Below are positions 9,207 through 48,100 of a DNA stretch of 64,000 nucleotides, piece after piece. The position numbers and the translations under genes are program-made. Position 1 is the stretch's first letter; each line of letters opens with the position of its first letter. Under the pieces are notes generated by a model, which was given only the letters and a program-made list of their open reading frames with translations, did no database searches and was not told where the DNA came from. Source of the stretch: Planctomycetales bacterium. Lineage in GTDB: Bacteria > Planctomycetota > JAKEIC01. The stretch spans positions 4,012 to 68,011 of the forward strand of contig JAKEIC010000342.1 of the NCBI GenBank assembly GCA_022614695.1. Reading direction: 5' to 3'.

Positions 9207-9260
9207 CCGTCCGGCAAGGTGCCGTCGGAGCCGGACGATCACTCCGAGATAGTGGGGGCG

Positions 9261-10639: not shown

Positions 10640-10656
10640 GGAAGCTGCGATGGGTC

Positions 10657-10664: not shown

Positions 10665-10672
10665 CCGCCGCC

Positions 10673-15000: not shown

Positions 15001-15003
15001 GAT
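14998..15003 (+). promoter_or_regulatory. TAGGAT junction hexamer (P1 stop embedded)
   Basis: TAGGATCGCGCC is conserved with the four other junctions. Here it is followed by a copy-specific insert containing a cccgggag direct repeat, TTGACG and GAGAAT. Confidence 0.3.
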
Positions 15004-15016
15004 CGCGCCCCGGGAG

Positions 15017-17215
15017 TTGACGCCCGGGAGAATCCTCGTGGGAACCAAGCCCGACACGGCGATGTCGGCACCCCGCCTCGAGCCCCGCGCCTTCCTCACC
15101 GACTTCGGCCTCGCGAAGTCCGTCGCGACTGGCTCGAAGCTCACGCGCACCGGCCAGGCCCTCGGGACGCCGGCCTACATGAGCCCGGAACAGGCCCGGG
15201 GCGAGGTCTCGTCGCTCACCACGGCGACGGACGTCTGGAGCCTCGGCAGCGTCCTCTTCGAGCTGCTCGCGGGGCGGCCGGCCTTCGAGGGGGAGACCTC
15301 CGCCGCGATCGTCGGGAGGATCCTCCTGGCGGAGCCGACGCGCCTCCGGAGGGTCCGGCCCGACGCCCCGCGTGGGCTCGATCGGGTGGTGCGGGTCGCC
15401 CTCGCCAAGCGGGCGCGGGATCGCTACCGCGACGCCGGCGCCCTGCGGGACGACCTCGCCCGGGTGCTCCGCGGCGAGTCGCCGCGGGCGCGCCCCGCGG
15501 GGACCTGGCGCCGGGTCGCGGTCCCCGTCGCGATCGCCTCGGGGGTGGTCCTCGCCCTCGCGGCCTTCCGCGGGCCGCGCGTCGCCGCACCGGCCGAGCT
15601 GCCCTCCTCCGGGGACTCCGAGGCCGAGAAGCTCGTGGTGGCGAGCCGCGCCCTCCGGCACTCCGACCCGCGGGGGGCCGCCGGGCTCCTCGGGCAGGCC
15701 CTCGCGCTCGATCCGTCGCGACCGGGGCTGCGTCTCGAGCGGGGACTCCTCCTCTGGGCGGTGGGAGAGGGCCCGGCGGCGCGGGAGGAGTGGGGACGCA
15801 TCGCGGCCGGGGTCCCCGAGGCCGCGGCCGCGAGGCTCTACCTCGGCCTCGAGGCCCTCTTCCACGCCGGGGGCGCCGACCCGCGGTTGGCGGAGGCCGA
15901 GGACCACCTGCGGAGGACCGCGGCCGGGGACGGCCCGGAGGCGCTCCTCGCCCGCGCCGCGCTCGCGGCCCTCGATTCCGAGTGGGGCTCGGCCCGCGCG
16001 CTGCTCCGCGACGCGAGGGGATGGGTCGCGGACGCCCTCCGCGGGTACGTGGAGGGGGTGGACCCGGCCGGGGATCCGCAGGCCGCGGCGCGCGCCGACA
16101 CGGCGGCGCTCGAGCAAGGCATCCCGTTCGCGTGGATCTACTGCAACCGGTCCGCCGCGCGGACACTGCTGGGCGACCCGCGCGGGGGACTCGAGGACGC
16201 CGAGCGGAGCCTCGCGCTCAGCGCCGGCATCGTCGAGGCGTACGCGAATCGCGGGGAGGCCCGGTCGCGCCTGGGGGACCGCGCCGGGGCGGTCGAGGAC
16301 TTCGGGAAGGTCCTCGACCATCGGCCGCGATCCTGGGAGGCCTGGACGAGGCGAGGCACCCTCCGGTACGAACTGCGGGACCTCCGCGGCGCCCTCGAGG
16401 ACTTCTCGGCGGCCCTCCGCCTGCGGCCGGACGACCCGGAGCGCCTCAACGACCGCGCCGGCGTCCTGCACGATCTCGGGGAGTACGACCGGGCCCTGGC
16501 CGACTGCGAGGCCGCGCTTCGGCTCCGACCCGAGTACCCCGACGCCCTGGCCAACCGGGGCGCGGTCCGCCTGGGGCTCAGCGACCCCCGGGGCGCGGTC
16601 GCGGACTTCGCGGCCGCCCTGCGGCTGCGTCCGGACATCCCCGAGATCCTGGTCAACCGGGGCATTGCCCGGCATGCGATGAGCGACCTCCGCGGGGCGG
16701 CCGAGGACTTCGACTCGGCCCTCCGGCTCCGGCCGGAGTATGACCAGGCCCACGCGGCGCGTGGGATCGTCCGGCGAGACCTCGGCGACCCGTCGGGGTC
16801 CGTCGAGGACCTCACCGCCGCCCTCGCCGTCCGCGCCGACGACCCGGAGTTCCTCGGCGCCCGGGGCCTCGCGCGGCGGGACCTCGGGGATCTCCCCGGG
16901 GCCCTCTCGGACCTGGATCGCGCGGTCGCCCGGGACGAGCGGAACCCGACGTACCGGAGCAACCGCGCCCTCACGCTCGCGCAGCTCGGCCGGCACGACG
17001 AGGCGCTCGCCGAGGCCGCGCGGGCCCTCGCGGCGGATCCGCAGGGCCCCTACTATGCCCATGCCGCCCGGGGGCTGGTGTTCCTTCGCCAAGCCGAACT
17101 CGCGAAAGCCCTCGCCGAATTCGAGCGCTTCGAGGCGCTCGCGGCGCCAGGGGACATGCTGCGGAAGGAGGTCGCCGCCTGGAGAAGAGAAGCGGCCGGA
17201 GGCCCCCAGAAGTAG
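15017..17215 (+). CDS. N-lobe-less kinase C-lobe - TM - TPR protein, array copy P2
   Basis: Same architecture as P1. Possible starts are TTG 15017, GTG 15038 and ATG 15062. The ATG at 15062 aligns with the internal ATG of P3-P5. Confidence 0.8.
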   Translation: MTPGRILVGTKPDTAMSAPRLEPRAFLTDFGLAKSVATGSKLTRTGQALGTPAYMSPEQARGEVSSLTTATDVWSLGSVLFELLAGRPAFEGETSAAIVGRILLAEPTRLRRVRPDAPRGLDRVVRVALAKRARDRYRDAGALRDDLARVLRGESPRARPAGTWRRVAVPVAIASGVVLALAAFRGPRVAAPAELPSSGDSEAEKLVVASRALRHSDPRGAAGLLGQALALDPSRPGLRLERGLLLWAVGEGPAAREEWGRIAAGVPEAAAARLYLGLEALFHAGGADPRLAEAEDHLRRTAAGDGPEALLARAALAALDSEWGSARALLRDARGWVADALRGYVEGVDPAGDPQAAARADTAALEQGIPFAWIYCNRSAARTLLGDPRGGLEDAERSLALSAGIVEAYANRGEARSRLGDRAGAVEDFGKVLDHRPRSWEAWTRRGTLRYELRDLRGALEDFSAALRLRPDDPERLNDRAGVLHDLGEYDRALADCEAALRLRPEYPDALANRGAVRLGLSDPRGAVADFAAALRLRPDIPEILVNRGIARHAMSDLRGAAEDFDSALRLRPEYDQAHAARGIVRRDLGDPSGSVEDLTAALAVRADDPEFLGARGLARRDLGDLPGALSDLDRAVARDERNPTYRSNRALTLAQLGRHDEALAEAARALAADPQGPYYAHAARGLVFLRQAELAKALAEFERFEALAAPGDMLRKEVAAWRREAAGGPQK

Positions 17216-17218
17216 GAT
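17213..17218 (+). promoter_or_regulatory. TAGGAT -10-like hexamer on the P2 stop, 6 nt before GTG 17225 (leaderless geometry)
   Basis: Read directly: aagTAGGATcgcgccGTGcgg. Confidence 0.4.
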
Positions 17219-17224
17219 CGCGCC

Positions 17225-19204
17225 GTGCGGGGCGCCGCGGCACCGATGACGTCCGGCCGCCCCGTCGAGCCCCGCGCCTTCCTCACCGACTTCGGCCTCG
17301 CGAAGGCCGTCGCGACGGGCTCGAGATTCACGAGGTCCGGCGACGCCCTGGGGACCCCGGCCTACATGTCCCCCGAGCAGGCGCGCGGAGAGGCGTCGTC
17401 GCTCACGCCCGCGACGGACGTCTGGTCGCTCGGAGGGACGCTCTACGAGATGCTGGCCGCTCGGCCGCCGTTCCCGGGGGAATCGGCGGCCGCGATCGTG
17501 GGCGCGCTCCTCACGCGGGAACCCCGGCGGATCCAACGGGACCGGCCGGACGTCCCGCGCGCCCTGGATCGGGTCCTCCGGTGCTCGCTCGCGAAGGCGG
17601 CGCGCGCGCGGTACGCCGACGCCGGGGCTGTCCGCGACGACCTCGACCGGGTCCTCCGGGGCGAGCCGCCCCGGGCGAGGCTCCCGGGCTCGGGGCGCCT
17701 CCAGGCCGCCGCGGCCGTCCTCGCCGCCGGGCTCGCCGCCTGGGTCGCGCTCCTCGTCCTCCCACGCGGGGAGGGCGACTCCCCTTCGCCCGTCTCTCGG
17801 CCCGCCTCCTCGGCGGCCGAGGCTCTCGCGGCGCGGGCCTCCGGCCTCCGGGAGGGCGACCCGGCCGCCGCGGCGCGGCGCCTCGCGGAGGCCCTTGCCC
17901 TGGAGCCGGCGCGTCCGGCGTGGCGCCTCGAACTCGGGCTGCTCCTCTGGGCGCTCGGCGATGGCGAGGCGGCCCGGGCGGAGTGGGGCGGGGTCCCGCG
18001 AGAGGCGCCCGAGGGCCGGCGCGCGAGGCTCTACCGGGCTCTGGAGCCGCTCTTCCAGCTGCGGGAGCCCGGTTCCGCCTCGGGCGCGGACGCGGCCGCG
18101 CTCGGGGAGCTCGCCACCGGGGGCGACGCGGAGGCGCGCCTGGCCCGCGCGGCGCTCGCGTGCTCCTCGAGCCGCTGGCCCGAGACCCGGGCGGCTCTCG
18201 GGGCGCTGGAGGGCTGGGAGCCCGCCCTCCTGCGAGGCTACGTCGAGGCGATGGACCCTCGCGGCGACCCGACGGCGGCCGTCCGTGAGCTGTCCGCCGC
18301 GCTCACCGCCGGGATCCCGTTCGCTTGGGTCTACAGCCTCCGCGGGATGGCCCGCGAGGCCGCGGGCGATCTCCGTGGCGCGGAGGAGGACCAGACGGCG
18401 GCGCTCCGGCTGCTGCCGGCGTTCCCGGATGCGCTCACGAATCGGGGAACCGCCCGCTTGGGGCAGGGCCGGATCGCCGACGCGATCGCGGATCACACCG
18501 AGGCGCTGCGATACCGTCCCCGGGACGCCGCCGCGCTCAACAACCGCGCGAACGCCCGGCGGGCCGCGGGGGACTTGCGAGGGGCGGTCGCGGACTACTC
18601 CGCCGCGCTGGCGATCGAGCCCCACAACCCCGAGATGCTGAACAACCGGGGCCTCGCCCGGGCGATGCTGGGCGAATCGCGGGAGGCCTTCGCCGACGCC
18701 GACGCGGCCGTCCGTCTCCGGCCGGGGATGGCGGGAGCGTGGAACACGCGGGGCCTCGCGCGCTGGGGGCTCGGCGACTCCGCCGGGGCGATCGAGGACT
18801 ATTCGGCGGCCCTGCGCCTGGAGCCGCGGCGGCCGACGACCCTCCTGAGCCGCGCGCTGGCGAGGCGCGACCGCGGCGACCGCGAGAGCGCCCTCCGCGA
18901 CGTGGAGGAGGCGCTCGCCCTCGACCCCTCGCGGGCGACCGCCCACAGCAATCGGGCGCTCCTCCTGGCGGAGGTCGGCCGCGTGGGGGAAGCCCTCGCC
19001 AGCGCCGATCGGGCCCTCGCGATGGACCCGACGGGTGCGTACTACGCCCACGCCGCGCGCGGGCTGGTGCTGCTCCGCGAGGGAAGGAACGCCCAAGCCC
19101 TCGACGAGTTCGGGAAGTTCGATTCGCTCGCGGCGCCGGGGGACCCGCTCCGGAGGGACGTCGCCGTCTGGAAGGCGGAGGCGGCCGGGGGCGTCCCGAA
19201 GTAG
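17225..19204 (+). CDS. N-lobe-less kinase C-lobe - TM - TPR protein, array copy P3
   Basis: MRGAAAPMTSGRPVEPRAFLTDFGLAK..GTPAYMSPEQARGE..DVWSLG.., then a TM helix and TPRs. An alternative ATG lies at 17246. Confidence 0.8.
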   Translation: MRGAAAPMTSGRPVEPRAFLTDFGLAKAVATGSRFTRSGDALGTPAYMSPEQARGEASSLTPATDVWSLGGTLYEMLAARPPFPGESAAAIVGALLTREPRRIQRDRPDVPRALDRVLRCSLAKAARARYADAGAVRDDLDRVLRGEPPRARLPGSGRLQAAAAVLAAGLAAWVALLVLPRGEGDSPSPVSRPASSAAEALAARASGLREGDPAAAARRLAEALALEPARPAWRLELGLLLWALGDGEAARAEWGGVPREAPEGRRARLYRALEPLFQLREPGSASGADAAALGELATGGDAEARLARAALACSSSRWPETRAALGALEGWEPALLRGYVEAMDPRGDPTAAVRELSAALTAGIPFAWVYSLRGMAREAAGDLRGAEEDQTAALRLLPAFPDALTNRGTARLGQGRIADAIADHTEALRYRPRDAAALNNRANARRAAGDLRGAVADYSAALAIEPHNPEMLNNRGLARAMLGESREAFADADAAVRLRPGMAGAWNTRGLARWGLGDSAGAIEDYSAALRLEPRRPTTLLSRALARRDRGDRESALRDVEEALALDPSRATAHSNRALLLAEVGRVGEALASADRALAMDPTGAYYAHAARGLVLLREGRNAQALDEFGKFDSLAAPGDPLRRDVAVWKAEAAGGVPK

Positions 19205-19207
19205 GAT
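19202..19207 (+). promoter_or_regulatory. TAGGAT -10-like hexamer on the P3 stop, 6 nt before GTG 19214
   Basis: Read directly: aagTAGGATcgcgccGTGcgg. Confidence 0.4.
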
Positions 19208-19213
19208 CGCGCC

Positions 19214-21412
19214 GTGCGGGGCGACGCGGCGCCAATGACGTCTGGTCCCCCCCTCGAGCCTCGCGCCTTCCTCACCGACTTCGGCCTGGCGAAAGCCGTC
19301 GCGACCGGCTCGAAGCTGACTCGGACTGGCGAGGCGCTCGGCACGCCGGCCTACATGTCCCCCGAGCAGGCGCGTGGGGAGATCTCCTCGCTCAGCCCTG
19401 CGACGGACGTCTGGAGCCTCGGCTGCGTCCTGTACGAGCTGCTCGCCTCCCGGCCCCCGTGGCAGGGGGGAACGACGGCAGCCGTCATCGCGGGGGTGCT
19501 CGCTCGCGAGCCCGTCCCGATCCGCAGGGTCCGATCTGACGTTCCGCCGGGCGCGGAGTCGGTCCTGATTCAGACCTTGGCGAAGGCGCAGAGAGACCGC
19601 TATCGCGATGCGGGCCCGCTGCGCGACGACCTCGAGCGGTTGCTCCGCGACGAGCGGCCCCTGGCGCGTCGGCCCGGTCGTCGCCGGCGCCTCGTGCTGG
19701 GACTCGGCGCCGCGACCGGCGCGGCGGCGTGCGTCGTGGCCGCCGCCCTGCCCGGGCCGCCGGCGCTCCCGGCATCGTTGGCCCCTCCGCCGACGGCGGG
19801 GCGCGCGGAGAGCATCGTCCAGGCGGCCCTGCGGGTCCGTCCCGCGGACCCGGCGAAGGCCGCCGGACTCCTCGCGGAGGCGCTGGCACTCGAGCCCGCC
19901 TCAGCGGTCTGGCGGCGGGATCGAGCCGACTGTCTCCGCGAGTGCGGGGAGTGGAGGGAGGCGGTGGCCGAATACGACCGGGTCCTGGCGACCCTCCCCG
20001 GCGACCTCGCGGCCCGGTTCGGCCGAGGGCTCGCGAGGTGGCTCGGAGTCTCGACGGGGGACCGCACGCTCGGGAACCCCAAGCCCGACCTCGGGGACGT
20101 CGGCGCCCGCGACCCGGGCTGGCAAGGAGCCCTCTCCCGGGCCATCCTGGCGCACGACGCGGGACGCTGGGAGGACGCTGAGCGCGAGATCGCCTCCGCG
20201 CGCGATCGCACGGCGGCGCTGGGGATCAGCGCGCTGCTCCGCCACCACGGGGGGACCGGAGACCTGGAGGCACAGCGGCGCGCCATCCAGGAGTTCACCC
20301 AGGCGATCGAGCAGGGACCGCCCCAGCGGTGGCTCTACTACGAGCGAGGACACGCCAAGGAGATCGCGGCCGACCTGCGCGGGGCCCTCGAGGACTATAC
20401 GGCCTCGATCGAGCTGTCCGCGGAGTACAGCTCTGCCCGCATCCGACGCGCCCTCCTGCGGGCAAAGCTCGGGGACGCGCCCGGATCGGAGGAGGACTTC
20501 CAGGTCGCCTTCCGGAACACGACTCCCGATGCCGGACTCCACATCGAGAGGGCCTTCGCTCGCGTGACCTTGGGGCGCCTCGCCGAGGCGCTGGGGGACT
20601 ATGACGCCGCCCTCCGCCTGGATCCGGACAACGCCGAGGCCTATCACGGCCGCTCGAGCGTCCGCAAGGACCTGGGGGATCTCCGGGGCGCCGTCGAAGA
20701 TTGCTCCGCGGCGATCCGTCTCCGTCCCGCCTTTCCTGCAGCCTTGAGCAACCGCGGGGCGTGGAGGATGGCTCTCGACGAACCCCGCTCCGCGCTCGAG
20801 GACTTCGAGGCCTCGCTCCGCCTCCGGCCGAACGATCCGATCGCTCGGTTCAACCGGGGAAACGCGCGGTACGCCCTCGGGGAGCTGGCGGGTGCGGTCG
20901 ACGACTACACGGCCGTGATCCCCATGCGTCCGGACTCCCCGGAGCCGCTGAACAATCGTGGCAATGCCCGCCGCTGGCTCGGTGACCTGGCGGGCGCGAT
21001 CGAGGACTACGGCGCCGCGCTCCGCGTCCAGCCCGGGTTCATGCCGGCGCTCCGCAATCGGGCGGAGGCGCGGGAGAGGCTCGGAGACCTCTCCGGGGCA
21101 CTCGCCGACGCGGAGGCCGTGCTGGCGTCGCGTCCGGGATTCCCTCCGTGCCTCGCGACGCGGGCGCTCGTCCTCGCCCGCTCGGGGCGGCTGGACGAGG
21201 CGCTCACGGAGGCGGCCCGGGCCGTGGCGGCGGGCCCGGCGGCTGCGCCCCATGCCCACGCCGCCCGCGGCTTGGCCCTGCTCCGTCAGGGGAGGCTCGC
21301 GGACGCCGTGGCCGAGTTCGAGGAGTTCGAGTCGCACGCAGGCCGCTACGACCCTGTCCGCCCGGACGCCGCGACTTGGAAGGCGGAGGCCCTCCAGGGC
21401 GCCTCGAAGTAG
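19214..21412 (+). CDS. N-lobe-less kinase C-lobe - TM - TPR protein, array copy P4
   Basis: Same N-terminal block as the other copies. The ectodomain has diverged most from the others. An alternative ATG lies at 19235. Confidence 0.8.
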   Translation: MRGDAAPMTSGPPLEPRAFLTDFGLAKAVATGSKLTRTGEALGTPAYMSPEQARGEISSLSPATDVWSLGCVLYELLASRPPWQGGTTAAVIAGVLAREPVPIRRVRSDVPPGAESVLIQTLAKAQRDRYRDAGPLRDDLERLLRDERPLARRPGRRRRLVLGLGAATGAAACVVAAALPGPPALPASLAPPPTAGRAESIVQAALRVRPADPAKAAGLLAEALALEPASAVWRRDRADCLRECGEWREAVAEYDRVLATLPGDLAARFGRGLARWLGVSTGDRTLGNPKPDLGDVGARDPGWQGALSRAILAHDAGRWEDAEREIASARDRTAALGISALLRHHGGTGDLEAQRRAIQEFTQAIEQGPPQRWLYYERGHAKEIAADLRGALEDYTASIELSAEYSSARIRRALLRAKLGDAPGSEEDFQVAFRNTTPDAGLHIERAFARVTLGRLAEALGDYDAALRLDPDNAEAYHGRSSVRKDLGDLRGAVEDCSAAIRLRPAFPAALSNRGAWRMALDEPRSALEDFEASLRLRPNDPIARFNRGNARYALGELAGAVDDYTAVIPMRPDSPEPLNNRGNARRWLGDLAGAIEDYGAALRVQPGFMPALRNRAEARERLGDLSGALADAEAVLASRPGFPPCLATRALVLARSGRLDEALTEAARAVAAGPAAAPHAHAARGLALLRQGRLADAVAEFEEFESHAGRYDPVRPDAATWKAEALQGASK

Positions 21413-21415
21413 GAT
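21410..21415 (+). promoter_or_regulatory. TAGGAT -10-like hexamer on the P4 stop, 6 nt before GTG 21422
   Basis: Read directly: aagTAGGATcgcgtcGTGcgc. Confidence 0.4.
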
Positions 21416-21421
21416 CGCGTC

Positions 21422-23896
21422 GTGCGCGGCGACGCGGCACCGATGACATCCGGCCCCACAGTCGAGCCTCGCGCCTTCCTCGCCGACTTCGGCCTCGCGA
21501 AAGCCGTCGCGACCGGCTCGAAGCTGACCCGCACTGGCCAGGCCCTCGGCACCCCGGCGTACATGTCACCCGAGCAGGCGCGGGGGGAGGTCTCCGCGCT
21601 CACCCCCGCGACGGACCTGTGGAGTCTCGGGTGCGTCCTCTACGAGATGCTCGCCAGCCGCCCACCGTTCGAGGGCGACACGGACGCCGCTGTGGTGGGC
21701 AACGTCATATTCGCGGAATCGCCGAGGCTGCGGACCCTCCGGGCAGACGTCTCGCAGGGCCTCGAGTGCGTCGTGCGGGTATGCCTTGGGAAACGCGTCC
21801 AGGACCGGCACACGGAGGCGGGGGCGCTGAGGGACGACCTCGACCGCGTGCTCCGAGGCGAGAGGCCGACGGCGCGTCCCGACGGGTCATGGGTGCGGAA
21901 GGCCGCGGTGGCCGCCCTCTGCGTGGCCTCGGTCTCGTGGGCCGCTGCCTACACCTTGCGGGGGCGGGGGCCGGAGGGACTCCCCGCGACAGCCTCCTCC
22001 TCGCCTTCGGCCGCGGAGGCGCTCGCGACCAGGGCCCGGGCCCTGCGGCAGTCGGACCCCCGCCGGGCGGCCGAGGTCCTCCGGGCGGCGCTCGAACGGG
22101 AGCCCTCGCGGGACGACCTGCGGCTAGAGAGGGGCCTCCTCCTCTGGGCGGTCGGAGAGAACGCGGAGGCCCGCGAGGAGTGGGGCCGGATCGGGTACGG
22201 GTCCTCCGAAGGGACGCAGGCGAAGCTCTTCCTCGCCCTCGAAGTGTTCTTCCGGATGGCGGGAGCCGAATCGCGGCCGCACCTCGTGGCCCTGAGGGAG
22301 GCCCCGGGCCGGGTGGGAAGTCTCGCTCGCGGGGCCGTCCGGGTGCTCGACAGTGAGTGGTCGCGGGCCCGGGAGGACCTCAGGGGAGTCGAGGGCTGGG
22401 AGGCGCACCTGCTCCGGGGCTACATCGAGAGTTGGGACCCCGCGGGCGACCGCGCGGCGGCGGTGCGGGCGTACGGGTCCGCACTCGACTCCTGGATACC
22501 CTTCGCCTGGGCCTGGAACAACCGCGGCGTCGCGAGGCGGGCGATCGGGGAGGACGCGGGGGCGGTGGCGGACTACAGCCGTGCCCTCCAGCTGGACCCC
22601 CGCTACGCGGAGGCCTGGAACAACCGCGGCAACGCGAAGGGGCGCCTCGGGGACCACGCCGCGGCTGTGGCGGACCTGGACCGCGCCCTCGAGCTCAACC
22701 CGCGGTACGCGGATGCCTGGAACAACCGCGGCGCTGCGAAGCGGGCCCTCGGGGACTACGCGGGGGCTGTGGCCGATCTCGACCGCGCCCTCGAGCTCGA
22801 CCCGCGGTACGCGACGACTTGGCACAACCGCGCTGTCGCGAAGCAGGCCCTCGGCGACCTCGCGGGAGCGATCGCGGACTACGGACGAGGCATCGAGCTG
22901 GACCCGCGGCTCCCGGCGGCCTGGAGCAACCGCGCTGCCGCCAAGGCCGCCCTCGGCGACCTGGCGGGGGCGATGGCAGACTGGGACCAAACCCTCGGGA
23001 TCGACCCGCAGTTCGCGGAGGCGTGGAACAACCGCGGCGGAGCGAAGCGGCTCCTCGGCGACCCCGCCGGGGCCCTGGCGGACCTGGACCATGCCCTCGG
23101 GCTCGACCCGCGGTCCGCGTGGACTTGGCACCACCGTGGACTCGCGAAGCGCGACCTCGGGGACCTCGCGGGGGCGGTGGCGGACCTGGACCGCGCCCTC
23201 GAGCTCGACCCGCGGAACGCGGGGGTCTGGAACAACCGCGGCCTCGCGAAGCGGGACCTCGGGGACCTCGCAGGGGCGGTCGCGGACCTGGACCGCGCCC
23301 TCGAGCTCGACCCGCGGCTCGCGGTATCCTGGTCGAACCGCGGCGCGGCGAAGCGGCGACTCGCGGACCACGCGGGAGCCGTCGCGGATCTCGATCGCGC
23401 CCTCGAGCTCGATCCGCGGAACGCGGCAGGCTGGGCGGACCGCAGCCTCGCGAAGCGGGACCTCGGGGACCCCGCAGGGGCGGTCACGGATGGCAACCGC
23501 TCCCTCGAGCTCGACCCGCGGAACGCGGCGGCCTGGAACATTCGCGGAGTCGCGAAGAGGGACCTCGGAGACCTCGCGGGCGCCCTCGAGGACCTCTCGA
23601 CCGCGATCCGCCTGGCGCCGGAGGGCCCATTCGGCTACAGCAACCGCGGTCTCGTGTTCGCGGGTCTCGGCCGCCTCGACGAGGCCCTCGCCGACGCCGA
23701 GAAGGCCCTCTCGATGGACCCGAAGGGGCCCTACTACGCCTACGCGGCCCGGGGGCTCGTGTTCATCCGGCAGGGGAAGCACGCGGCGGCCCTTGCCGAT
23801 CTCGAGCGCTTCGAGTCGCTCGCGATACCGGCCGACCCGCTCCGGAAGGACGTCGCCGCCTGGAAGGCGGAGGCGGCGCGGGGAGCGCCGAAGTAG
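21422..23896 (+). CDS. N-lobe-less kinase C-lobe - TM - long TPR array protein, array copy P5
   Basis: Same N-terminal block, here with AFLADFG. The ectodomain contains about 12 consecutive 34-aa TPRs. An alternative ATG lies at 21443. Confidence 0.8.
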   Translation: MRGDAAPMTSGPTVEPRAFLADFGLAKAVATGSKLTRTGQALGTPAYMSPEQARGEVSALTPATDLWSLGCVLYEMLASRPPFEGDTDAAVVGNVIFAESPRLRTLRADVSQGLECVVRVCLGKRVQDRHTEAGALRDDLDRVLRGERPTARPDGSWVRKAAVAALCVASVSWAAAYTLRGRGPEGLPATASSSPSAAEALATRARALRQSDPRRAAEVLRAALEREPSRDDLRLERGLLLWAVGENAEAREEWGRIGYGSSEGTQAKLFLALEVFFRMAGAESRPHLVALREAPGRVGSLARGAVRVLDSEWSRAREDLRGVEGWEAHLLRGYIESWDPAGDRAAAVRAYGSALDSWIPFAWAWNNRGVARRAIGEDAGAVADYSRALQLDPRYAEAWNNRGNAKGRLGDHAAAVADLDRALELNPRYADAWNNRGAAKRALGDYAGAVADLDRALELDPRYATTWHNRAVAKQALGDLAGAIADYGRGIELDPRLPAAWSNRAAAKAALGDLAGAMADWDQTLGIDPQFAEAWNNRGGAKRLLGDPAGALADLDHALGLDPRSAWTWHHRGLAKRDLGDLAGAVADLDRALELDPRNAGVWNNRGLAKRDLGDLAGAVADLDRALELDPRLAVSWSNRGAAKRRLADHAGAVADLDRALELDPRNAAGWADRSLAKRDLGDPAGAVTDGNRSLELDPRNAAAWNIRGVAKRDLGDLAGALEDLSTAIRLAPEGPFGYSNRGLVFAGLGRLDEALADAEKALSMDPKGPYYAYAARGLVFIRQGKHAAALADLERFESLAIPADPLRKDVAAWKAEAARGAPK
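22511..23734 (+). repeat. in-frame 102-bp tandem repeat (about 12 units) encoding TPRs inside P5
   Basis: The unit start (g/a)c(c/t)tgg(a/c)acaaccgcgg recurs at 22511, 22613, 22715, 22817, 22919, 23021, 23123, 23225, 23327, 23429, 23531 and 23633. Several neighbouring units are near-identical (..GDLAGAVADLDRALELDPRNA..WNNRGLAKRDL). Confidence 0.8.
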
Positions 23897-23899
23897 GAT
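23894..23899 (+). promoter_or_regulatory. TAGGAT -10-like hexamer on the P5 stop, 6 nt before the ggt GTG 23906
   Basis: Read directly: aagTAGGATcgcgccGTGcgcggc. It matches the intra-array junctions for about 27 nt. Confidence 0.4.
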
Positions 23900-23905
23900 C
23901 GCGCC

Positions 23906-25648
23906 GTGCGCGGCCACGCCACGCTCGCGCTCCTCGCGGCCCTCGCCTGCTCGCGACCCGAGCCGGCAGCCGTCCCCGCGGCCGCGGCTGTCTCCGCGCC
24001 CGCCCCCCTCCGCACCGACGCCGCCGTCGCGACGGCCGAGCCGTTCGCCACGCACGCCGCCGCCGACGTGCTCGCCGACGGCGGGAACGCCGTGGATGCG
24101 GCCGTCTGCGCGGCGCTCACGCTCGCCGTCACCTACCCCTCTGCCGGGAACCTCGGGGGCGGGGGGTTCCTCGTCACGTGGGACCCCGGCACCCGCGAGG
24201 CGCACGCGCTCGACTTCCGCGAGACGGCGCCGGCGGCCGCGACTCGGGACATGTACCTCGGGCCGGACGGCAATCCCGACCCGGAGAAGAGCCTCGAAGG
24301 TCACCTCGCGGTCGGGGTCCCGGGCTCGGTCCGCGGGCTCTCCGCGGCGCACCGGAAGTTCGGTCGGCTCCCGTGGAAGAGCCTCGTCCTCCCCGCGATC
24401 CACCTCGCGGAGGAGGGGATCCCCGTCTCGGCCGGGCTCGCGGGCGAGTTCAAGCGCCACGCCGAGAAGCTCGCGAGGTATCCGGCGAGTGCGGCGGCGT
24501 TCCTCAAGGCCGACGGCTCGCCCCACGGGAAGGGCGACTCGTGGAAGCAGCCCGACCTCGCGAGGACCCTCCGCCGGATCGCCGAGGGCCCCTCGGACTT
24601 CTACACGGGCGAGACCGCCCGCCTCATCGTCGAGGAGATGAAGCGCGGGGGGGGGATCCTCGACGTCCACGACCTCTCGTGCTACTCGGCTGCCTGGCGC
24701 GACCCGATCCGGGTGCCGTACCGCGGGCGCGAGGTGGTCTCGATGCCGCCGCCGAGCAGCGGAGGCGTCTGCGTCGGGATGATCCTGCGGGTCCTCGAGG
24801 GCTGGACGCCCGCCGAGATCCGGCTCGACGACCCGGCCGGCGCGCACCGGTACGTCGAGGCGGCGCGGCGCGTCTACGCGGACCGGTCGCAGCACCTCGG
24901 GGACCCGGACCAGTGGCGGGTGCCGCTGGCGTGGCTCCTCTCGCCCGCGTACGCCGCCGAGCGGCGGGCGACGATCCGGATGGACGGGGCGACGGGGTCG
25001 CGTAACGTCGCGCCGGGCGCCGAGCCGAGGCGCGAGGGGGTCCACACCACCCACCTCTCTGTCCTCGACTTCGACGGCCGGGCCGCCTCGCTCACGACCA
25101 CGATCAACTCGGGCTACGGATCGCACGTGACCGTCGGCGGGGCCGGGTTCCTCCTCAACAACGAAATGGACGACTTCTCGGCGAAGCCCGGCGCCCCGAA
25201 CCTCTACGGGCTCGTGGGCGGCGAGGCGAACGCGGTCGCCCCGGGGAAGCGCATGCTCTCGTCCATGGCGCCGACCGTGGTCCTCGAGGACGGCCGCGCG
25301 CGGCTCGTCGTCGGGACCCCCGGCGGCTCGACGATCATCACGAGCGTCTTCCAGGTAGTGACTCGCGTCGTGGATCAGGGCGAGTCCCTGGAGGCGGCCG
25401 TCGCAGCCCCCCGGCTCCACCACCAGTGGCTCCCGGACAAGCTCTTCCACGAGAAGGGCCGGGCGCCCCCCCCGGCCCTCCTCGAGGCGCTCGCGAAGCT
25501 CGGCCACACGCTCGAGCCCCGCCCCGAGATCGGGGACGTCTGCGCGATCGCGGTGGACGGGGCCGGCCGCGCCACCGCCGTCGCCGACCCGCGGGGACGG
25601 GGGCTCGCGAGGACGCTCCCGGCCTGGTCTCGCCCCGAGACCAAGTGA
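23906..25648 (+). CDS. ggt: gamma-glutamyltransferase
   Basis: It has a signal peptide. GGT blocks are present: GNLGGGGF, the autoprocessing-site region TTHLSVLD, NNEMDDFS and SSMAPT. Confidence 0.9.
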   Translation: MRGHATLALLAALACSRPEPAAVPAAAAVSAPAPLRTDAAVATAEPFATHAAADVLADGGNAVDAAVCAALTLAVTYPSAGNLGGGGFLVTWDPGTREAHALDFRETAPAAATRDMYLGPDGNPDPEKSLEGHLAVGVPGSVRGLSAAHRKFGRLPWKSLVLPAIHLAEEGIPVSAGLAGEFKRHAEKLARYPASAAAFLKADGSPHGKGDSWKQPDLARTLRRIAEGPSDFYTGETARLIVEEMKRGGGILDVHDLSCYSAAWRDPIRVPYRGREVVSMPPPSSGGVCVGMILRVLEGWTPAEIRLDDPAGAHRYVEAARRVYADRSQHLGDPDQWRVPLAWLLSPAYAAERRATIRMDGATGSRNVAPGAEPRREGVHTTHLSVLDFDGRAASLTTTINSGYGSHVTVGGAGFLLNNEMDDFSAKPGAPNLYGLVGGEANAVAPGKRMLSSMAPTVVLEDGRARLVVGTPGGSTIITSVFQVVTRVVDQGESLEAAVAAPRLHHQWLPDKLFHEKGRAPPPALLEALAKLGHTLEPRPEIGDVCAIAVDGAGRATAVADPRGRGLARTLPAWSRPETK

Positions 25649-26883
25649 GCCCGTCCGAGCCCCCGCGCTCGCCGCTCGCGCGCCTCGCCGCCTCCCTCGC
25701 CCTCACGCGCGAGACGGTCGCCGTGCTCGTGGCCGTCTTCTGCCTCGAGCTCGGGGAGGAGCTCTGGAAGGAGTTCTTCCCCGACTACCTCCGGAATTCG
25801 CTCGGCGCGTCGGTCCTCGGAGTCGCGGTCTACTCCGCCGCGCGGAACCTGATGGAGGGGCTGCTCTTCCTGGGCGGCGCCTCGTTCACGCAGAGGCTCG
25901 GCGTCCGTGGGAGCATGGCCGTCGCGACTCTCGTCCCGCTCGCGGGCTACTTCCTGCTGCTCGGGTACGGGGTCCCGGGCCTCGCCGTCGCCGGGGCGCT
26001 CGCCGTCTCCTCGTTCGAGGCGCTCTCGGTCCCCTCGACGTTCGTGGTCGTGGGAGCGAGCGTCCCGAAGGGGAAGCGGACCCTCGCGTTCGCGATCCAG
26101 AGCATCCAGAAGCGGCTGCCGAAGATCGTCGGCCCCGCGCTCGCCGGCCTCGTCGTCGCCGCCTCGGTCCGCCTCGGGGGCGAGAGGGCGGGGCTCCGGC
26201 GCGGGATGCTCGGGCTGGTCGGGGCCGGGATGGCGCTCGCGTGCGTCTCGCTCGCTGTCCAGTGGTGGCTCCTCGCCCGGGCGACCCCGCCCCGCCCGCC
26301 CGCCCCGTGGCGGGCGGCCTGGCGCGCGATGGACCCCTTCCTCCGGAGGCTCCTCCTCTCCGAGTGCCTCGTCCGCTGGTGCGACTGGATGGTGCGGGAC
26401 TTCGCCGTCCTCTACGTCGTCTCGGAGCTCGCCCGGGACCGGGCGGAGTACGGGGGCCTCGTCGCGCTCCAGATGACGGTCGCGCTCGCGACCTACATCC
26501 CGGTCGCGTTCCTCGCGGACCGCGGGCGGGAGCGGCCGCTCATCGGCACGACGTTCGTCTTCTTCGCGCTCTTCCCGCTCGTCCTCTGGGGAGGCTGGAT
26601 CGTCGCCGGTCCGGCCGGTCTCGTCCTCGCCTACGTCGTGAACGGCCTCCGCGAGATCGGGGAGCCGGCCCGGAAGGCGATCATCACGACGCGCTTCCCC
26701 GAGGAGGTGCGGGCGGCGGGCGTGGGACTCTACTGGGGGATCCGCGCGTTCGTCCTCTGCCCCGCCCCGCTCGTCGCCGCCGCGATCTGGACGGCGGCCT
26801 CGCCCGGGGCGGTCCTCGTCGCGGCGTTCGGGTTCGGGGTGGCGGGGACGGCGATCTACGCGGTGACGGCGAGGAGATCCTAA
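25645..26883 (+). CDS. MFS-type transporter
   Basis: The GTG overlaps the ggt stop (GTGA). It has roughly 12 hydrophobic helices with an MFS-like loop arrangement. Confidence 0.75.
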   Translation: MSPSEPPRSPLARLAASLALTRETVAVLVAVFCLELGEELWKEFFPDYLRNSLGASVLGVAVYSAARNLMEGLLFLGGASFTQRLGVRGSMAVATLVPLAGYFLLLGYGVPGLAVAGALAVSSFEALSVPSTFVVVGASVPKGKRTLAFAIQSIQKRLPKIVGPALAGLVVAASVRLGGERAGLRRGMLGLVGAGMALACVSLAVQWWLLARATPPRPPAPWRAAWRAMDPFLRRLLLSECLVRWCDWMVRDFAVLYVVSELARDRAEYGGLVALQMTVALATYIPVAFLADRGRERPLIGTTFVFFALFPLVLWGGWIVAGPAGLVLAYVVNGLREIGEPARKAIITTRFPEEVRAAGVGLYWGIRAFVLCPAPLVAAAIWTAASPGAVLVAAFGFGVAGTAIYAVTARRS

Positions 26884-33299: not shown

Positions 33300-33866
33300 G
33301 TGAGGACCCTCGTCGAGGAAGCCCGCGTCACGTGGCGGGGCCGGGACCTCTCCGTGACCACCTACCTCCGGTTCCCGGACTCCCTCCGCCAGGAGGTCCG
33401 CGGCGAGGGCTACGAGGGGACCTCGGTCCTGGTGGGCGACCGGGCGGTCTTCCGCCAAGGCCCTCTCGCGGGACCGCTCGCGCCCGAGGACGCCGCGCTC
33501 CTGCGCGAGCTGCGAAAGAACTGGGTCCCGCTCCTCGGGGCGGAGGGGGACGCCCTGGAAGCCCTCCCGCGCGAGACCCGGGGGGGACGCTCTTGCGACG
33601 CGATCCTTGCGCGCGATGCCCGCGGCCGCGCGCGGCGCTTCCTCCTCGACGCGGAGACCGGCCTCCTCGCCGCGGTCGTCGCACGGCCCGAGGCGCCCGG
33701 GACGCCCGAGGTCGAGTACTCCTACGGCGACTGGAGGCGGGTCGGGAGCCTCCTCTGGCCCCACGAGGTCCGGATCTCGACCGGAGGCGTCGTCACGAAG
33801 GAGATCCGGACCGTGAAGGTCGTTGCGAACGAGGACCTCCCCGGGGCGCTCTTCGAGATGCCGTAG
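33300..33866 (+). CDS. hypothetical protein (LolA-like / lipoprotein-sorting-fold guess); true start probably upstream
   Basis: The first canonical start is the GTG at 33300. However, the same frame is open from 33135 and encodes a lipoprotein-like signal (see findings). Confidence 0.45.
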   Translation: MRTLVEEARVTWRGRDLSVTTYLRFPDSLRQEVRGEGYEGTSVLVGDRAVFRQGPLAGPLAPEDAALLRELRKNWVPLLGAEGDALEALPRETRGGRSCDAILARDARGRARRFLLDAETGLLAAVVARPEAPGTPEVEYSYGDWRRVGSLLWPHEVRISTGGVVTKEIRTVKVVANEDLPGALFEMP

Positions 33867-33878
33867 CGGCCGGTCAAC

Positions 33879-33907
33879 TTGTCGAGCCCTCCCCAGTCCG
33901 CTACCCT
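33879..33907 (+). promoter_or_regulatory. TTGTCG-N17-TACCCT promoter-like element, 8 nt before GTG 33916
   Basis: Read directly. The geometry would give a leaderless or near-leaderless K2 transcript. Confidence 0.3.
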
Positions 33908-33915
33908 CGACTCCG

Positions 33916-45880: not shown

Positions 45881-46180
45881 CTACCCCTGCGGCGGCGGGC
45901 CCCCCACGACGTCGTAGTGCTCCCGGAACCAGGACTCGGCGGTCCGGAACGCCTCGTCCTCGGAGGGGCCGATCCAGAACATCTCGGTCCGGGCGGGGGA
46001 GCCGAGCCCCGGCCAGCGCGCCGCGTCCTTCACGTCCGGGGGGAACCGGACCGAGACGACCCAGCGGGTCGTCCGCTCGTGCGCGGAGAGGATGACCGTC
46101 GTCTCGAGCGCGGGCTTCACCCCGCGGACCCGGATCGTGACGCGCCTTTCGCCCACGACGGCAGTGTACCTCGAGGTCAC
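45881..46180 (-). CDS. hypothetical 99-aa protein translationally coupled to P6
   Basis: The GTG at 46180 overlaps the P6 stop (GTGA). It has non-repetitive composition (..TVILSAHERTTRWVVSVRFPPDVKD..MFWIGPSEDEAFRTAESWFREHYD). I recognised no family. Confidence 0.4.
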   Translation of the reverse strand: MTSRYTAVVGERRVTIRVRGVKPALETTVILSAHERTTRWVVSVRFPPDVKDAARWPGLGSPARTEMFWIGPSEDEAFRTAESWFREHYDVVGGPPPQG

Positions 46181-47916: not shown

Positions 47917-48100
47917 GTAGCTCGGGGTCCCGAGCGCCTGGCCGCTCCGGGTGAATCTCGAGCCGGTCGCGACGGACTTCGCGAGGCCGAAGTCGGTGAG
48001 GAAGGCGCAAGGCTCGATGCGAGGAGCCCCTTCGAGGGGCTCAGGGCAAGCCGGCGACGCGGCCAGGGCGTTGGCGACGTCGCGCGCGCGCTCGATGGCG

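What the first reader, a model, noticed from the sequence alone, without database searches (positions are those of the whole stretch)
23894..23920. Array junction is the ggt promoter/start region: truncated kinases expressed from a captured 5' end
Seen in sequence: the junctions P2/P3, P3/P4, P4/P5 and P5/ggt all read TAGGATCGCG(C/T)CGTGCG(G/C)GGC(G/C)(A/C)CGC. The similarity between the intra-array junctions and the ggt start (GTG CGC GGC CAC GCC...) extends about 27 nt from the TAG stop. After that the array copies continue ..CCGATGAC(G/A)TC.GG...GAGCC.CGCGCCTTCCTC into the DFG block, while ggt continues into its signal peptide. Inference: the repeat unit was generated by tandem duplication. 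One breakpoint lay a few codons inside ggt and the other just upstream of the DFG codons of an ancestral kinase-TM-TPR gene. Each duplication therefore fused the ggt -10, start codon and MRG... to a C-lobe. The P1/P2 junction carries an extra roughly 50-nt insert and P1 itself is fused to K1 instead.
Basis: partly seen in the sequence, partly recalled or inferred. Interest (0 to 1): 0.55.

Follow-up and report, generated by a model that had tools for sequence, protein, structure and literature searches.

The report
ggt start region copied between kinase-remnant genes
A 26-base stop, ribosome-site and start segment belonging to the ggt gene is repeated between three neighbouring receptor genes, but those genes were not truncated by that event: they belong to a large, apparently undescribed bacterial family of membrane receptors that keep only the back half of a protein kinase.

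Summary
TAGGATCGCG(C/T)CGTGCG(G/C)GGC(G/C)(A/C)CGC occurs four times only, at P2/P3, P3/P4, P4/P5 and P5/ggt. Its similarity to ggt runs 26 nt, to base 14 of the ggt reading frame, then falls to random.

A sister MAG has the full kinase K1 directly abutting ggt through the same TAG-N9-GTG, with no array. The repeated junction joins the ggt head to GGCRCCRATGA, the stop/start overlap that also forms K1/P1.

The other joint lies about 10 nt upstream of the start of an already N-lobe-less gene, not at the DFG of a full kinase.

- 111 of the 120 best relatives begin just before DFG, both as standalone genes and in other arrays.
- The five copies are old (synonymous sites saturated) and not monophyletic (0/100 bootstraps). 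Only the C-terminal module, junction and leader are array-specific.
- No promoter evidence was found. AGGA-N7-GTG reads best as a ribosome-binding site plus start codon.

The proteins keep a PknB-type αF–αI core and an invariant activation loop predicted to be disordered. They are probably non-catalytic partners or substrates of full kinases.

The parts
10673..13045 (+). K1: full-length Hanks-type kinase, TM, PEGA and FGE-sulfatase domain. It heads the same-strand gene run.
   Evidence: Pfam Pkinase 1-260/263, PEGA and FGE-sulfatase. The start is placed by alignment to the sister ortholog, which is 90.6% aa identical.
13042..13045 (+). ATGA stop/start overlap of K1 and P1. The same kind of joint is used in other arrays of the family.
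   Evidence: Sequence. The same CGATGA overlaps occur in L002 and L084.
13042..15000 (+). P1: N-lobe-less kinase, TM, TPR.
   Evidence: Pkinase profile 139-204 only, plus TPRs. Identical to database protein P0005.
14998..15058 (+). P1/P2 junction. TAG plus GATCGCGCC is shared with the other junctions. A different 52-nt segment follows, with its own GGGAG-N7-GTG (GTG at 15038) and a CCCGGGAG direct repeat.
   Evidence: The other assembly's gene call for P2 (725 aa) starts at this GTG.
15038..17215 (+). P2: N-lobe-less kinase, TM, TPR.
17213..17248 (+). Junction copy 1: TAG, spacer with AGGA, GTG, 4 2/3 ggt-like codons, then GGCACCGATG.
17225..19204 (+). P3: N-lobe-less kinase, TM, TPR.
   Evidence: Identical to P0001. 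AF2 model of residues 1-172.
19202..19237 (+). Junction copy 2.
19214..21412 (+). P4: N-lobe-less kinase, TM, TPR. It is the most divergent body.
21410..21445 (+). Junction copy 3.
21422..23896 (+). P5: N-lobe-less kinase, TM, TPR, with a 102-nt x 10.5 TPR tandem repeat. Its body is sister to the dispersed paralogues P0034 and P0064.
23894..23919 (+). The finding: P5 stop TAG, 9-nt spacer containing AGGA, ggt GTG and ggt codons 2 to 5. This is the segment shared with the array junctions.
   Evidence: It is positionally orthologous to the K1/ggt junction of the sister MAG.
23906..25648 (+). ggt: gamma-glutamyltranspeptidase with an N-terminal signal or lipoprotein-like peptide.
   Evidence: Pfam G_glu_transpept 2-512/512, E = 5.9e-168. 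Ortholog P0122 is 84% identical.
25645..26883 (+). MFS transporter. It overlaps the ggt stop and is the last gene of the same-strand run.
46177..48021 (-). P6: a sixth family member elsewhere in the window. It has no canonical start codon before the FLTDFG block.

Best explanation
**What the segment is.** Window 23894-23919 is the translation-initiation region of ggt. It holds an upstream stop TAG, an AGGA Shine-Dalgarno sequence 7 nt before the GTG, and the first 4 2/3 codons (MRGH). In the sister genome the same TAG-N9-GTG links K1 directly to ggt.

**What happened here.** Five genes of a pre-existing family lie between K1 and ggt. Three of the four internal junctions are a recombination joint. 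Each joint fuses the ggt head (up to ORF base 14) to GGCRCCRATGA. That sequence is the family's usual stop/start overlap, and it also forms the K1/P1 junction.

This is what an unequal or illegitimate duplication produces when its right end is inside ggt and its left end is about 10 nt upstream of a P start codon. The result is in frame. P3, P4 and P5 have the same ribosome-binding site and GTG as ggt, plus a 7-codon N-terminal extension (MRG(A/D)AAP) ahead of their old ATG.

The whole run K1-P1..P5-ggt-MFS has gaps of -4 to 37 nt. It is most simply one operon, with initiation at each junction.

**What the event did not do.** It did not truncate the kinases. The family had already lost the kinase region from beta3 to beta7: Lys, alpha-C, hinge, alpha-D/E and the HRD loop.

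**Mosaic copies.** The copies are old, and their bodies have different nearest relatives elsewhere in the genome. Only the last ~90 residues, the junction and the leader are array-specific. Recombination or gene conversion has therefore reshuffled bodies against a constant junction block.

**Likely function (inferred).**
- The proteins are catalytically dead single-pass receptors with a periplasmic TPR domain.
- The cytoplasmic part is a PknB-like alpha-F to alpha-I core.
- It is preceded by an invariant, flexible DFG..T-x-T..APE activation segment.
- This part probably docks onto full-length kinases such as K1 and is phosphorylated by them in trans.
For: **Shown**
- The motif occurs only at the four junctions, and its similarity extends to ggt +14.
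- The sister MAG has K1-TAG GATCCGCCC GTG-ggt. The blastn breakpoints are L086:9984 = window 13038 on the left and window 23889 on the right.
- The left boundary CCGATGA is shared with K1/P1 and with the array joints of L002 and L084.
- AGGA-N7-GTG is chosen as the start by the public gene calls for P3, P4 and ggt.
- No promoter or terminator hits.
- Family-wide truncation: 111 of 120 homologues. About 96 of the best 150 cluster representatives match from within their first 45 residues.
- Sampled DNA of the two MAGs holds 17 C-half-only loci, 6 full kinases and 0 N-half-only loci.
- Several members keep vestiges of the kinase N-terminus (MRxGPYE..GRGG) joined to PH(V/L)xDFG.
- Age: four-fold identity is 0.44-0.48 in the bodies, against 0.64-0.66 for the K1 and ggt orthologues.
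- Mosaicism: the C-terminal 90 aa are 54-66% identical within the array and at most 44% identical outside it. The middle segments score better outside the array.
- Array monophyly is 0 of 100 bootstraps, and P5+P0034+P0064 group in 100 of 100.
- The genes are under constraint: dN/dS is 0.23-0.38 in the C-lobe.
- Structure: pLDDT exceeds 90 for residues 45-172 and is below 65 for residues 1-42. The best structural matches are the C-lobe of the M. tuberculosis PknB kinase domain, at rmsd 1.1-1.5 Å over about 110 residues and 40% identity.
- D22, F23, G24, T36, G39, G43, T44, P50, Q52, G55 and R129 are invariant in 107 sequences. T38 is at least 90% conserved.

**Inferred**
- Operon expression, the direction of copying, and the docking/substrate role.
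Against: - The direction of copying cannot be proven.
  - Only one relative of the locus exists.
  - If that relative lost the array by deletion, its K1/ggt joint would be a scar rather than the ancestral state.
  - The sister's ggt codons 2-5 do not resemble the junction (5 of 11 nt), so the MRGH head is not shown to be older than the array.
- The junction copies differ at only 3-4 of 36 nt, while neighbouring four-fold sites are only about 63% identical. A plain old duplication scar should have decayed. Extra constraint or short-tract conversion must be assumed.
- P1/P2 has a different joint that the single-event model does not explain.
- There are no expression data. A -10-only (TANNNT) leaderless promoter cannot be excluded.
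- The proposed function rests on conservation and a predicted structure only.
Confidence: 0.6

Rival explanations
1. Reverse capture. The junction, including GTG CGC GGC, is the array's own gene start. ggt acquired it when a deletion or conversion fused the 5' end of a former sixth copy to the ggt signal peptide.
For: - About 18 family members start with MR, and several with MRxG(P), a vestige of the kinase N-terminus.
- The sister's ggt has different codons 2-5, although the rest of the protein is 83% identical.
- The array bodies predate the species split, so the sister may be a deletion derivative.
Against: - The 21 nt between the GTG and the old ATG end in the vestigial CCGATGA overlap that marks the original family start. 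The MRG extension is therefore secondary in the P genes.
- No other P locus examined has this junction.
- More distant ggt orthologues also begin MR...
- TAG-N9-GTG precedes ggt in both genomes.
Confidence: 0.15
2. The junction is a promoter. TAGGAT is a -10 element lying 6 nt before the GTG, so each of P3-P5 and ggt is transcribed as a leaderless mRNA.
For: - TAGGAT fits TANNNT and is placed 6 nt from the GTG.
- The identical 19-mer precedes the start codon of real, unrelated high-GC3 ORFs in at least 8 of 16 metagenome hits.
- The junction is much better conserved than neighbouring synonymous sites.
Against: - No -35/-10 pair was found in 9000-26500.
- The same bases form a textbook AGGA-N7-GTG ribosome-binding site.
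- Gaps of 9 nt and ATGA overlaps between same-strand genes argue for co-transcription.
- In the sister genome the element sits 0 nt after the K1 stop.
- Leaderless -10 rules are known to me from Actinobacteria, not from this lineage (own knowledge).
Confidence: 0.15
3. Silent-cassette system. The 5'-truncated copies are donor cassettes, like pilS or orphan Rhs/CdiA C-termini. They would recombine through the conserved DFG-APE block with a full-length kinase gene to swap its sensor domain.
For: - Conservation starts sharply at FLTDFG.
- Arrays are head to tail, here downstream of the full kinase K1.
- Some members have no canonical start codon (P6, P0032, P0105, P0107).
- The bodies are mosaic.
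Against: - Most members have an ATG just before the block, or their own upstream region next to a divergent gene.
- K1 shares at most 16 nt of exact identity with P1-P5 in the block, and about 72% overall.
- K1 is 90.6% identical to its ortholog, with the same FGE C-terminus, so there is no sign of swapping.
- Synonymous conservation of the block is family-wide, and just as high against unrelated full kinases.
- dN/dS is 0.23-0.38.
Confidence: 0.05
4. The match between the array junction and the ggt start is chance similarity in GC-rich DNA.
For: The genome is 74% G+C, and short GC-rich words recur often. The 19-mer also occurs in unrelated metagenomes.
Against: - Four matches where 0.01 are expected.
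- 10 of 11 matches beyond the GTG has p of about 0.001-0.003.
- Spacing, frame and position after a stop codon are identical in all four copies.
Confidence: 0.01

Closest known systems
[quoted passage not shown]
   Same: A protein-kinase C-lobe kept without the N-lobe and without catalysis, and used as a protein-interaction module (PMC11231147, PMC2064798).
   Different: - KIND is holozoan/metazoan, cytosolic, and derived from PAK-like kinases.
- Here the remnant is PknB-like and starts at DFG, so it also lacks alpha-D, alpha-E and the catalytic loop.
- It keeps an invariant activation loop and sits on a single-pass TPR receptor.
- No Pfam KIND hit at E <= 0.001.
Bacterial Hanks-type receptor kinases with periplasmic TPR, WD40 or FGE domains, as expanded in Planctomycetota
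   Same: - The same overall layout: cytoplasmic kinase part, one TM helix, periplasmic TPR array.
- Lineage-specific expansions and adjacent duplicates.
- K1's FGE architecture is the third commonest partner domain (PMC11032199).
- Full-length relatives at 57-62% identity exist in the same MAGs.
   Different: The P proteins lack the G-loop, the VAIK Lys, alpha-C and HRD, so they cannot be kinases.
Bacterial pseudokinase families: the seven families of the bacterial STK atlas, and YukC/EssB
   Same: Non-catalytic descendants of Hanks kinases, conserved as families (bioRxiv 10.1101/2025.01.12.632604).
   Different: - The described families keep a bilobal domain with substituted catalytic residues or small deletions (G-helix, activation loop).
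- None is described as lacking the whole N-lobe and catalytic loop.
- Here DFG is invariant instead of lost.
PknB front-to-front (alpha-G mediated) trans-autophosphorylation dimer
   Same: - The best structural matches are PknB kinase-domain structures, including 3F61 and 3F69.
- The T-R-T of the P loop aligns with PknB's activation-loop threonines. The alignment and the dimer mechanism are from my own knowledge.
   Different: It is only a mechanistic analogy. No complex was modelled or tested.
Tandem-duplication joints that give a gene copy the initiation signals of its downstream neighbour
   Same: The internal joint equals the head of the 3' flank plus the tail of the 5' flank. The last copy retains the original flank.
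   Different: The copies are ancient and mosaic, yet the joint is almost unchanged. One of the four joints (P1/P2) is different.

Membership tests
Hanks-type (eukaryote-like) Ser/Thr protein kinase, catalytically competent | Glycine-rich loop and VAIK lysine (N-lobe) | tested here: not met
   The Pfam Pkinase match of P1-P6 starts at profile position 139 of 263. Only 4-52 residues precede DFG in 111 relatives.
Hanks-type (eukaryote-like) Ser/Thr protein kinase, catalytically competent | HRD catalytic loop | tested here: not met
   No HRD[LIVM]KP upstream of DFG in P1-P6 or in 111 of 120 homologues. K1, K2 and K3 have it.
Hanks-type (eukaryote-like) Ser/Thr protein kinase, catalytically competent | DFG, APE and the alpha-F to alpha-I core | tested here: met
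   DFG and the conserved Arg are invariant, and the APE Glu and alpha-F Asp are at least 90% conserved. The AF2 core superposes on PknB at 1.1-1.5 Å.
KIND domain (Pfam KIND) | Sequence membership in the KIND family | tested here: not met
   No KIND hit among Pfam matches at E <= 0.001. The best family is Pkinase.
KIND domain (Pfam KIND) | A C-lobe-only, non-catalytic kinase remnant acting as an interaction module | tested here: inconclusive
   C-lobe-only and non-catalytic status is shown. An interaction role was not testable here.
Tandem-duplication joint | The internal joint equals the sequence 3' of the last copy followed by the sequence 5' of the first copy | tested here: met
   The first 26 nt equal the P5/ggt junction. 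The next ~10 nt, GGCRCCRATGA, equal the K1/P1 GGCCCGATGA with one indel.
Tandem-duplication joint | The copies are each other's closest relatives | tested here: not met
   Array monophyly is 0 of 100 bootstraps. P5 groups with P0034 and P0064, and P4 with P0103, P0116 and P0119. Only the C-terminal 90 aa are array-specific.
Sigma-70-type promoter | -35 and -10 hexamers at 16-18 nt spacing | tested here: not met
   0 sites in 9000-26500. Only a lone TAGGAT is present.
Gamma-glutamyltranspeptidase (ggt) | Full-length G_glu_transpept domain preceded by an export signal | tested here: met
   PF01019 positions 2-512 of 512. The hydrophobic N-terminus with LAC is visible in the sequence. No signal-peptide predictor was run.
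Structured cis-regulatory RNA at the junction | Stable, conserved secondary structure with covariation | tested here: not met
   z-scores range from +0.5 to -1.4, and 0 compensatory pairs were found.

The most novel reading that the evidence does not exclude
The array is a sample of an undescribed, very large family of 'kinase-less receptor kinases'.

- **Size:** about 96 of the best 150 clusters at 50% identity, and 17 loci in about 155 kb sampled.
- **Architecture:** a periplasmic TPR sensor and one TM helix. The cytoplasmic PknB remnant has lost everything before DFG. It keeps an invariant, disordered DFG-TxT-APE loop.
- **Proposed role:** dedicated trans-phosphorylation substrates or co-receptors for a few full-length kinases. 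This would be a bacterial, independently evolved counterpart of KIND or pseudokinase co-receptors.
- **The junction:** the near-invariant 26-36 nt junction, far better conserved than neighbouring synonymous sites, would be a selected control element. It would couple translation of P3-P5 and ggt, rather than being a passive scar.
Probability: 0.2. Interest if true: 0.7.

Novelty: new variant of a known kind. Interest (0 to 1): 0.45.

Why it matters
The junction itself is a neat but ordinary piece of molecular evolution: a duplication joint that hands a neighbour's ribosome-binding site and start codon to new gene copies.

The gene family behind it is more interesting.
- Hundreds of membrane receptors keep only kinase subdomains VII-XI.
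- The activation loop is the best-conserved part, yet it is predicted to be disordered.
- The two surveys I consulted do not mention such a family. These are the Planctomycetota kinase expansion study (PMC11032199) and the bacterial kinase and pseudokinase atlas (bioRxiv 10.1101/2025.01.12.632604).

If these proteins are trans-phosphorylated co-receptors, a few catalytic kinases could read many sensors. That would change how bacterial Ser/Thr signalling networks in kinase-rich lineages are counted and interpreted.

There is also a practical lesson for annotation. These genes are currently labelled 'TPR repeat protein' or 'serine/threonine protein kinase' interchangeably.

Tried and rejected
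- **GTDB genome scan with ggt.** Only distant GGTs at 55% identity or less, so no synteny information.
- **Metagenome scan for the 19-mer AGTAGGATCGCGCCGTGCG.** 16 hits, none with K1, P or ggt homologues. They are unrelated genes, so they are not relatives and do not test the hypothesis.
- **Promoter and terminator scan.** Nothing found.
- **RNA structure at the junction.** No stability above shuffles and no covariation.
- **Array-specific gene conversion in the 5' DFG-APE block.** Four-fold identity is 0.63-0.65 within the array. The same block gives 0.53-0.60 between dispersed paralogues, sister-MAG genes and even unrelated full kinases. The excess is therefore mostly codon bias in a conserved block and is not good evidence.
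- **Split-kinase idea, with separate N-half proteins complementing the P proteins.** No N-half-only locus in about 155 kb of the two MAGs.
- **K1 tail as the source of the GTGCGGG... part of the junction.** The junction is closer to ggt (11-13 of 14, aligned by eye from the sequences) than to the K1 tail (9 of 14, same by-eye alignment).
- **A CCGAAG 6-bp repeat** at the K1 tail and at each P tail, as a possible target-site duplication. It is too short to evaluate, and the sister's K1 tail does not fit cleanly.
- **Multi-stretch hits.** These turned out to be unrelated proteins with several complete kinase domains.

Full report
**1. What is at the coordinates**

The window is 74% G+C. It carries a run of same-strand genes:

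| Gene | Coordinates |
|---|---|
| K1 | 10673-13045 |
| P1 | 13042-15000 |
| P2 | 15038-17215 |
| P3 | 17225-19204 |
| P4 | 19214-21412 |
| P5 | 21422-23896 |
| ggt | 23906-25648 |
| MFS transporter | 25645-26883 |

Pfam gives the following:
- K1 is a complete Pkinase domain (profile 1-260 of 263) with PEGA and FGE-sulfatase domains.
- Each P matches Pkinase only from profile position 139, that is from DFG onward, followed by TPR repeats.
- ggt is a full gamma-glutamyltranspeptidase.

**2.

The four junction copies are:
- 17213 (P2/P3): TAGGATCGCGCCGTGCGGGGCGCCGC
- 19202 (P3/P4): TAGGATCGCGCCGTGCGGGGCGACGC
- 21410 (P4/P5): TAGGATCGCGTCGTGCGCGGCGACGC
- 23894 (P5/ggt): TAGGATCGCGCCGTGCGCGGCCACGC

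The evidence against chance is:
- The 21-mer with up to 3 mismatches is found only at these four places. Shuffles expect 0.01.
- Against ggt, the array copies match 14-15 of 15 nt through the GTG.
- They match 8-10 of the next 11 nt, and 10-11 of the following 34 nt.
- A 10-of-11 match has a background frequency of 0.0008 in the window, or 0.0026 after a GTG.

The shared segment is therefore 26 nt, ending at 23919. After it the array copies read GGCRCCRATGAC... into the DFG block, and ggt runs into its signal peptide.

P1/P2 shares only TAG plus 9 nt. It then has a different 52-nt stretch with its own GGGAG-N7-GTG (GTG at 15038).

K1 and P1 are not fused. They overlap by ATGA in different frames.

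**3. The relative that matters**

ggt has one close relative in 5.8 billion proteins: P0122, at 84% identity. It lies in a sister MAG (GCA_040961615.1, locus L086). There the K1 ortholog (90.6% aa identity) is followed by TAG GATCCGCCC GTG and ggt, with no P gene between them.

blastn aligns L086 up to position 9984 with the window up to 13038. It aligns L086 from 9984 onward with the window from 23889 onward. Window 13039-23888, the whole array, is therefore an indel.

P5's TAG, the 9-nt spacer and the GTG are positionally orthologous to the sister's K1-stop/ggt-start joint. The pattern TAGGATCNNNCCGTG occurs only at these junctions among all 89 fetched loci.

A second assembly of the same species (L001, 99.4% nt identity) has the same array.

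**4. Where the joints are**

The left end of the repeated unit is visible by comparing K1/P1 (..AAGGCCCGATGAATTCC) with the array joints (..GCGGCACCGATGACGTCC). Similarity begins about 10 nt before the ATG.

CGATGA is the usual joint of this family's arrays elsewhere. There the upstream gene ends ..G R * and the next gene starts at the overlapping ATG (L002:4877 and four joints in L084).

So the array joint is the ggt head (TAG to +14) followed by the old stop/start overlap. But the left end lies just upstream of an already truncated gene, not at the DFG of a full kinase.

The fusion is in frame. It adds MRG(A/D)AAP before the old Met. Public gene calls start P3, P4 and ggt at that GTG. Of the four differences among the three copies between the GTG and the ATG, three are at third codon positions. 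This is weak support that the extension is translated.

**5. The truncation is a family trait**

The first 400 residues of P3 have 671 homologues at E <= 1e-5. Nearly all named ones are called 'Planctomycetales bacterium' MAG proteins. Of the best 120:
- 111 begin a median of 15 residues (range 4-52) before the D of DFG and have no HRD.
- 6 are full-length kinases.
- 3 start further downstream.

An exhaustive HMMER search of 1.84 billion cluster representatives gives 387 hits at E <= 1e-30. About 96 of the best 150 match from within their first 45 residues.

Members occur as standalone genes next to divergent neighbours (L083:6726, L085:2396 and 10001, L002:2865). They also occur in other arrays (L084, L002).

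In about 155 kb of the two MAGs there are 17 C-half-only loci, 6 full kinases and no N-half-only locus. The window itself has a sixth copy (P6, 48021-46177, minus strand) and two more full kinases, K2 and K3.

Several members keep a decayed kinase N-terminus joined to the strand before DFG. Examples are MRTGPYETHAELDREG|RPHLADFG and MQAGPSHPESEPGRGGSTTVYGGG|RPHVVDFG. Others keep a pre-DFG insert that is also present in full-length relatives, SQPQTTN(D/A)KPQT. The form therefore arose by internal deletion or 5' truncation before, and independently of, this array.

**6. The array is old and mosaic**

- Four-fold degenerate sites are 0.44-0.48 identical in the gene bodies. Chance is 0.42.
- The K1 and ggt orthologues of the two species are 0.64-0.66 identical at such sites.
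- Pairwise protein identity among P1-P5 is 41-57%.
- Their bodies are not each other's closest relatives. P5 is 63-64% identical to P0034 and P0064, which lie elsewhere in the genome. It is about 52-55% identical to its array neighbours P1-P3, and less to P4.
- In an NJ bootstrap of the DFG-to-linker region, the array is monophyletic in 0 of 100 replicates, and P5+P0034+P0064 group in 100 of 100.
- In contrast, the last 90 residues are array-specific. Each copy's best match within the array is 54-66% identical, against at most 44% to any other family member.
- The junction copies differ at only 3-4 of 36 nt.

So a constant block (C-terminal module, junction, leader) is combined with bodies of different ancestry. 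This requires gene conversion or recombination on top of any duplication. It also requires either selection on the junction or short-tract homogenisation of it.

The apparent synonymous conservation of the 5' DFG-APE block is not array-specific. I do not count it as evidence.

**7. Promoter or ribosome-binding site**

No sigma-70-like promoter or intrinsic terminator is found in 9000-26500. AGGA lies 7 nt before each GTG. The gaps between genes are -4, 37, 9, 9, 9, 9 and -4 nt. I therefore read the element as a ribosome-binding site plus start codon within an operon.

A lone TAGGAT 6 nt before the GTG would also fit a -10-only, leaderless design. The identical 19-mer precedes real ORF starts in unrelated metagenome contigs. 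That observation is compatible with either reading.

The junction RNA shows no special stability or covariation.

**8. What the proteins are**

- dN/dS is 0.23-0.38 in the kinase remnant, so these are constrained genes rather than debris.
- In the AF2 model of P3 residues 1-172, residues 45-172 (P+1 loop, alpha-F to alpha-I, TM helix) have pLDDT above 90.
- Residues 1-42 (leader, DFG, activation loop) have pLDDT of 41-63.
- The folded part superposes on the C-lobe of the M. tuberculosis PknB kinase domain, at rmsd 1.1-1.5 Å over about 110 residues and 40% identity.
- The flexible segment is nevertheless the most conserved. D22, F23, G24, T36, G39, G43 and T44 are invariant, and T38 is at least 90% conserved, in 107 sequences.
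- By alignment with PknB (my own knowledge), T36 and T38 correspond to its two activation-loop phospho-threonines.

Lacking the G-loop, the Lys, alpha-C and HRD, the proteins cannot phosphorylate anything.

The best-supported inference is that they are receptor-like partners or substrates of full-length kinases. They would dock by the C-lobe, be phosphorylated in trans on the loop, and carry diversified periplasmic TPR sensors. Periplasmic TPR with a cytoplasmic kinase part is the standard layout in Planctomycetota (PMC11032199).

**9. Comparison with what is known**

- The closest concept is the animal KIND domain, a non-catalytic kinase C-lobe used for binding (PMC11231147, PMC2064798). There is no sequence membership, and the remnant here is shorter and PknB-derived.
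- The bacterial kinase atlas describes seven pseudokinase families with substitutions or small deletions. None lacks the N-lobe (bioRxiv 10.1101/2025.01.12.632604).
- The Planctomycetota kinase study does not mention truncated forms.

**10. Verdict**

- The promoter claim is unsupported.
- The claim that the event created the truncated kinases is wrong.
- The junction is a modest curiosity.
- The family it belongs to is a new variant of the pseudokinase/KIND theme and is worth a dedicated look.

Noticed in passing
window 46177-48021 (-): A sixth N-lobe-less kinase-TM-TPR gene (P6). It has no ATG, GTG or TTG between the upstream in-frame stop and the FLTDFG block. Only an ATC, or the internal Met of MSPEQ, could serve as a start. 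Three database relatives (P0032, P0105, P0107) are likewise called from that internal Met.
   Followed up: partly
window 22510-23580; L001 8986-9954: The TPR region of P5 is a 102-nt tandem repeat with 10.5 copies at 76% match. The other assembly of the same species (99.4% identical) has exactly one unit (34 aa) fewer. Either TPR number varies within the species, or one assembly collapsed a repeat.
   Followed up: partly
L090-L105 (JGI metagenome contigs): The 19-mer AGTAGGATCGCGCCGTGCG occurs in 16 unrelated contigs. In at least 8 the GTG opens a genuine high-GC3 ORF. In four contigs (L090, L092, L094, L105) that ORF starts VRELRPGLW(H/Y)W(E/D)APHP, and L097 carries an evident orthologue starting VREVATGVWHWQAPHP. 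In the contigs of this gene whose flank is shown (L090, L091, L092, L094, L105) the further upstream DNA differs. The same start-region word is therefore reused in other high-GC bacteria.
   Followed up: partly
window 15001-15058: The P1/P2 junction carries a direct repeat, CCCGGGAG...CCCGGGAG, a TTGACG, and its own GGGAG-N7-GTG in place of the ggt-derived segment. Its origin is unexplained.
   Followed up: no
window 15017-25648 (+): P2, P3, P4, P5 and ggt all lie in one reading frame, interrupted only by four TAG codons. Each is followed by GAT CGC GNC GTG. Read-through of TAG would give fusion proteins. All five P genes use TAG, as does K1 in the sister MAG.
   Followed up: no
window 13031-13036 and the last two sense codons of P1, P3 and P5: CCGAAG occurs in the K1 tail (GAG CCG AAG GCC CGA TGA) and directly before the TAG of P1, P3 and P5. 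P2 has CAGAAG and P4 has TCGAAG. It might be a short duplication left by the original insertion, but it is too short to test.
   Followed up: no
L086 4758-7299 vs window 9207-9897; window 10152-10615: Upstream of K1 the sister MAG has an extra AAA_15/AAA_21 ATPase gene that the window lacks. The window has about 460 nt that the sister lacks.
   Followed up: no
L002 7524-16649; L089 5275-9870: Other family members sit next to mobile DNA. L002 has a serine recombinase, DUF2924, and a LexA-like and HNH gene set. L089 has three tyrosine integrases beside a full-length kinase that ends within the linker.
   Followed up: no
window 38190-42704 (+); 33817-36612 (+); 58081-61044 (-); 48409-48501 (-): A 1,504-residue protein with five DUF4388 repeats. 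Two further full-length kinases with TPRs: K2, which has a ~190-aa N-terminal extension, and K3. Also a tRNA-Ser(GCT).
   Followed up: partly
L086 10001-10024 vs window junction copies: Codons 5-7 of the sister's ggt (GCG GCG CCC, AAP) resemble codons 5-7 of the array leader (GCG GCR CCR, AAP). That is beyond the point where this genome's own ggt stops matching the junction. The match is 7 of 9 nt and may be chance in GC-rich DNA.
   Followed up: no
P0241-P0245, P0248: Some of the best-scoring representatives are unrelated giant proteins with 3-6 complete kinase domains in tandem, up to 2,592 aa.
   Followed up: partly
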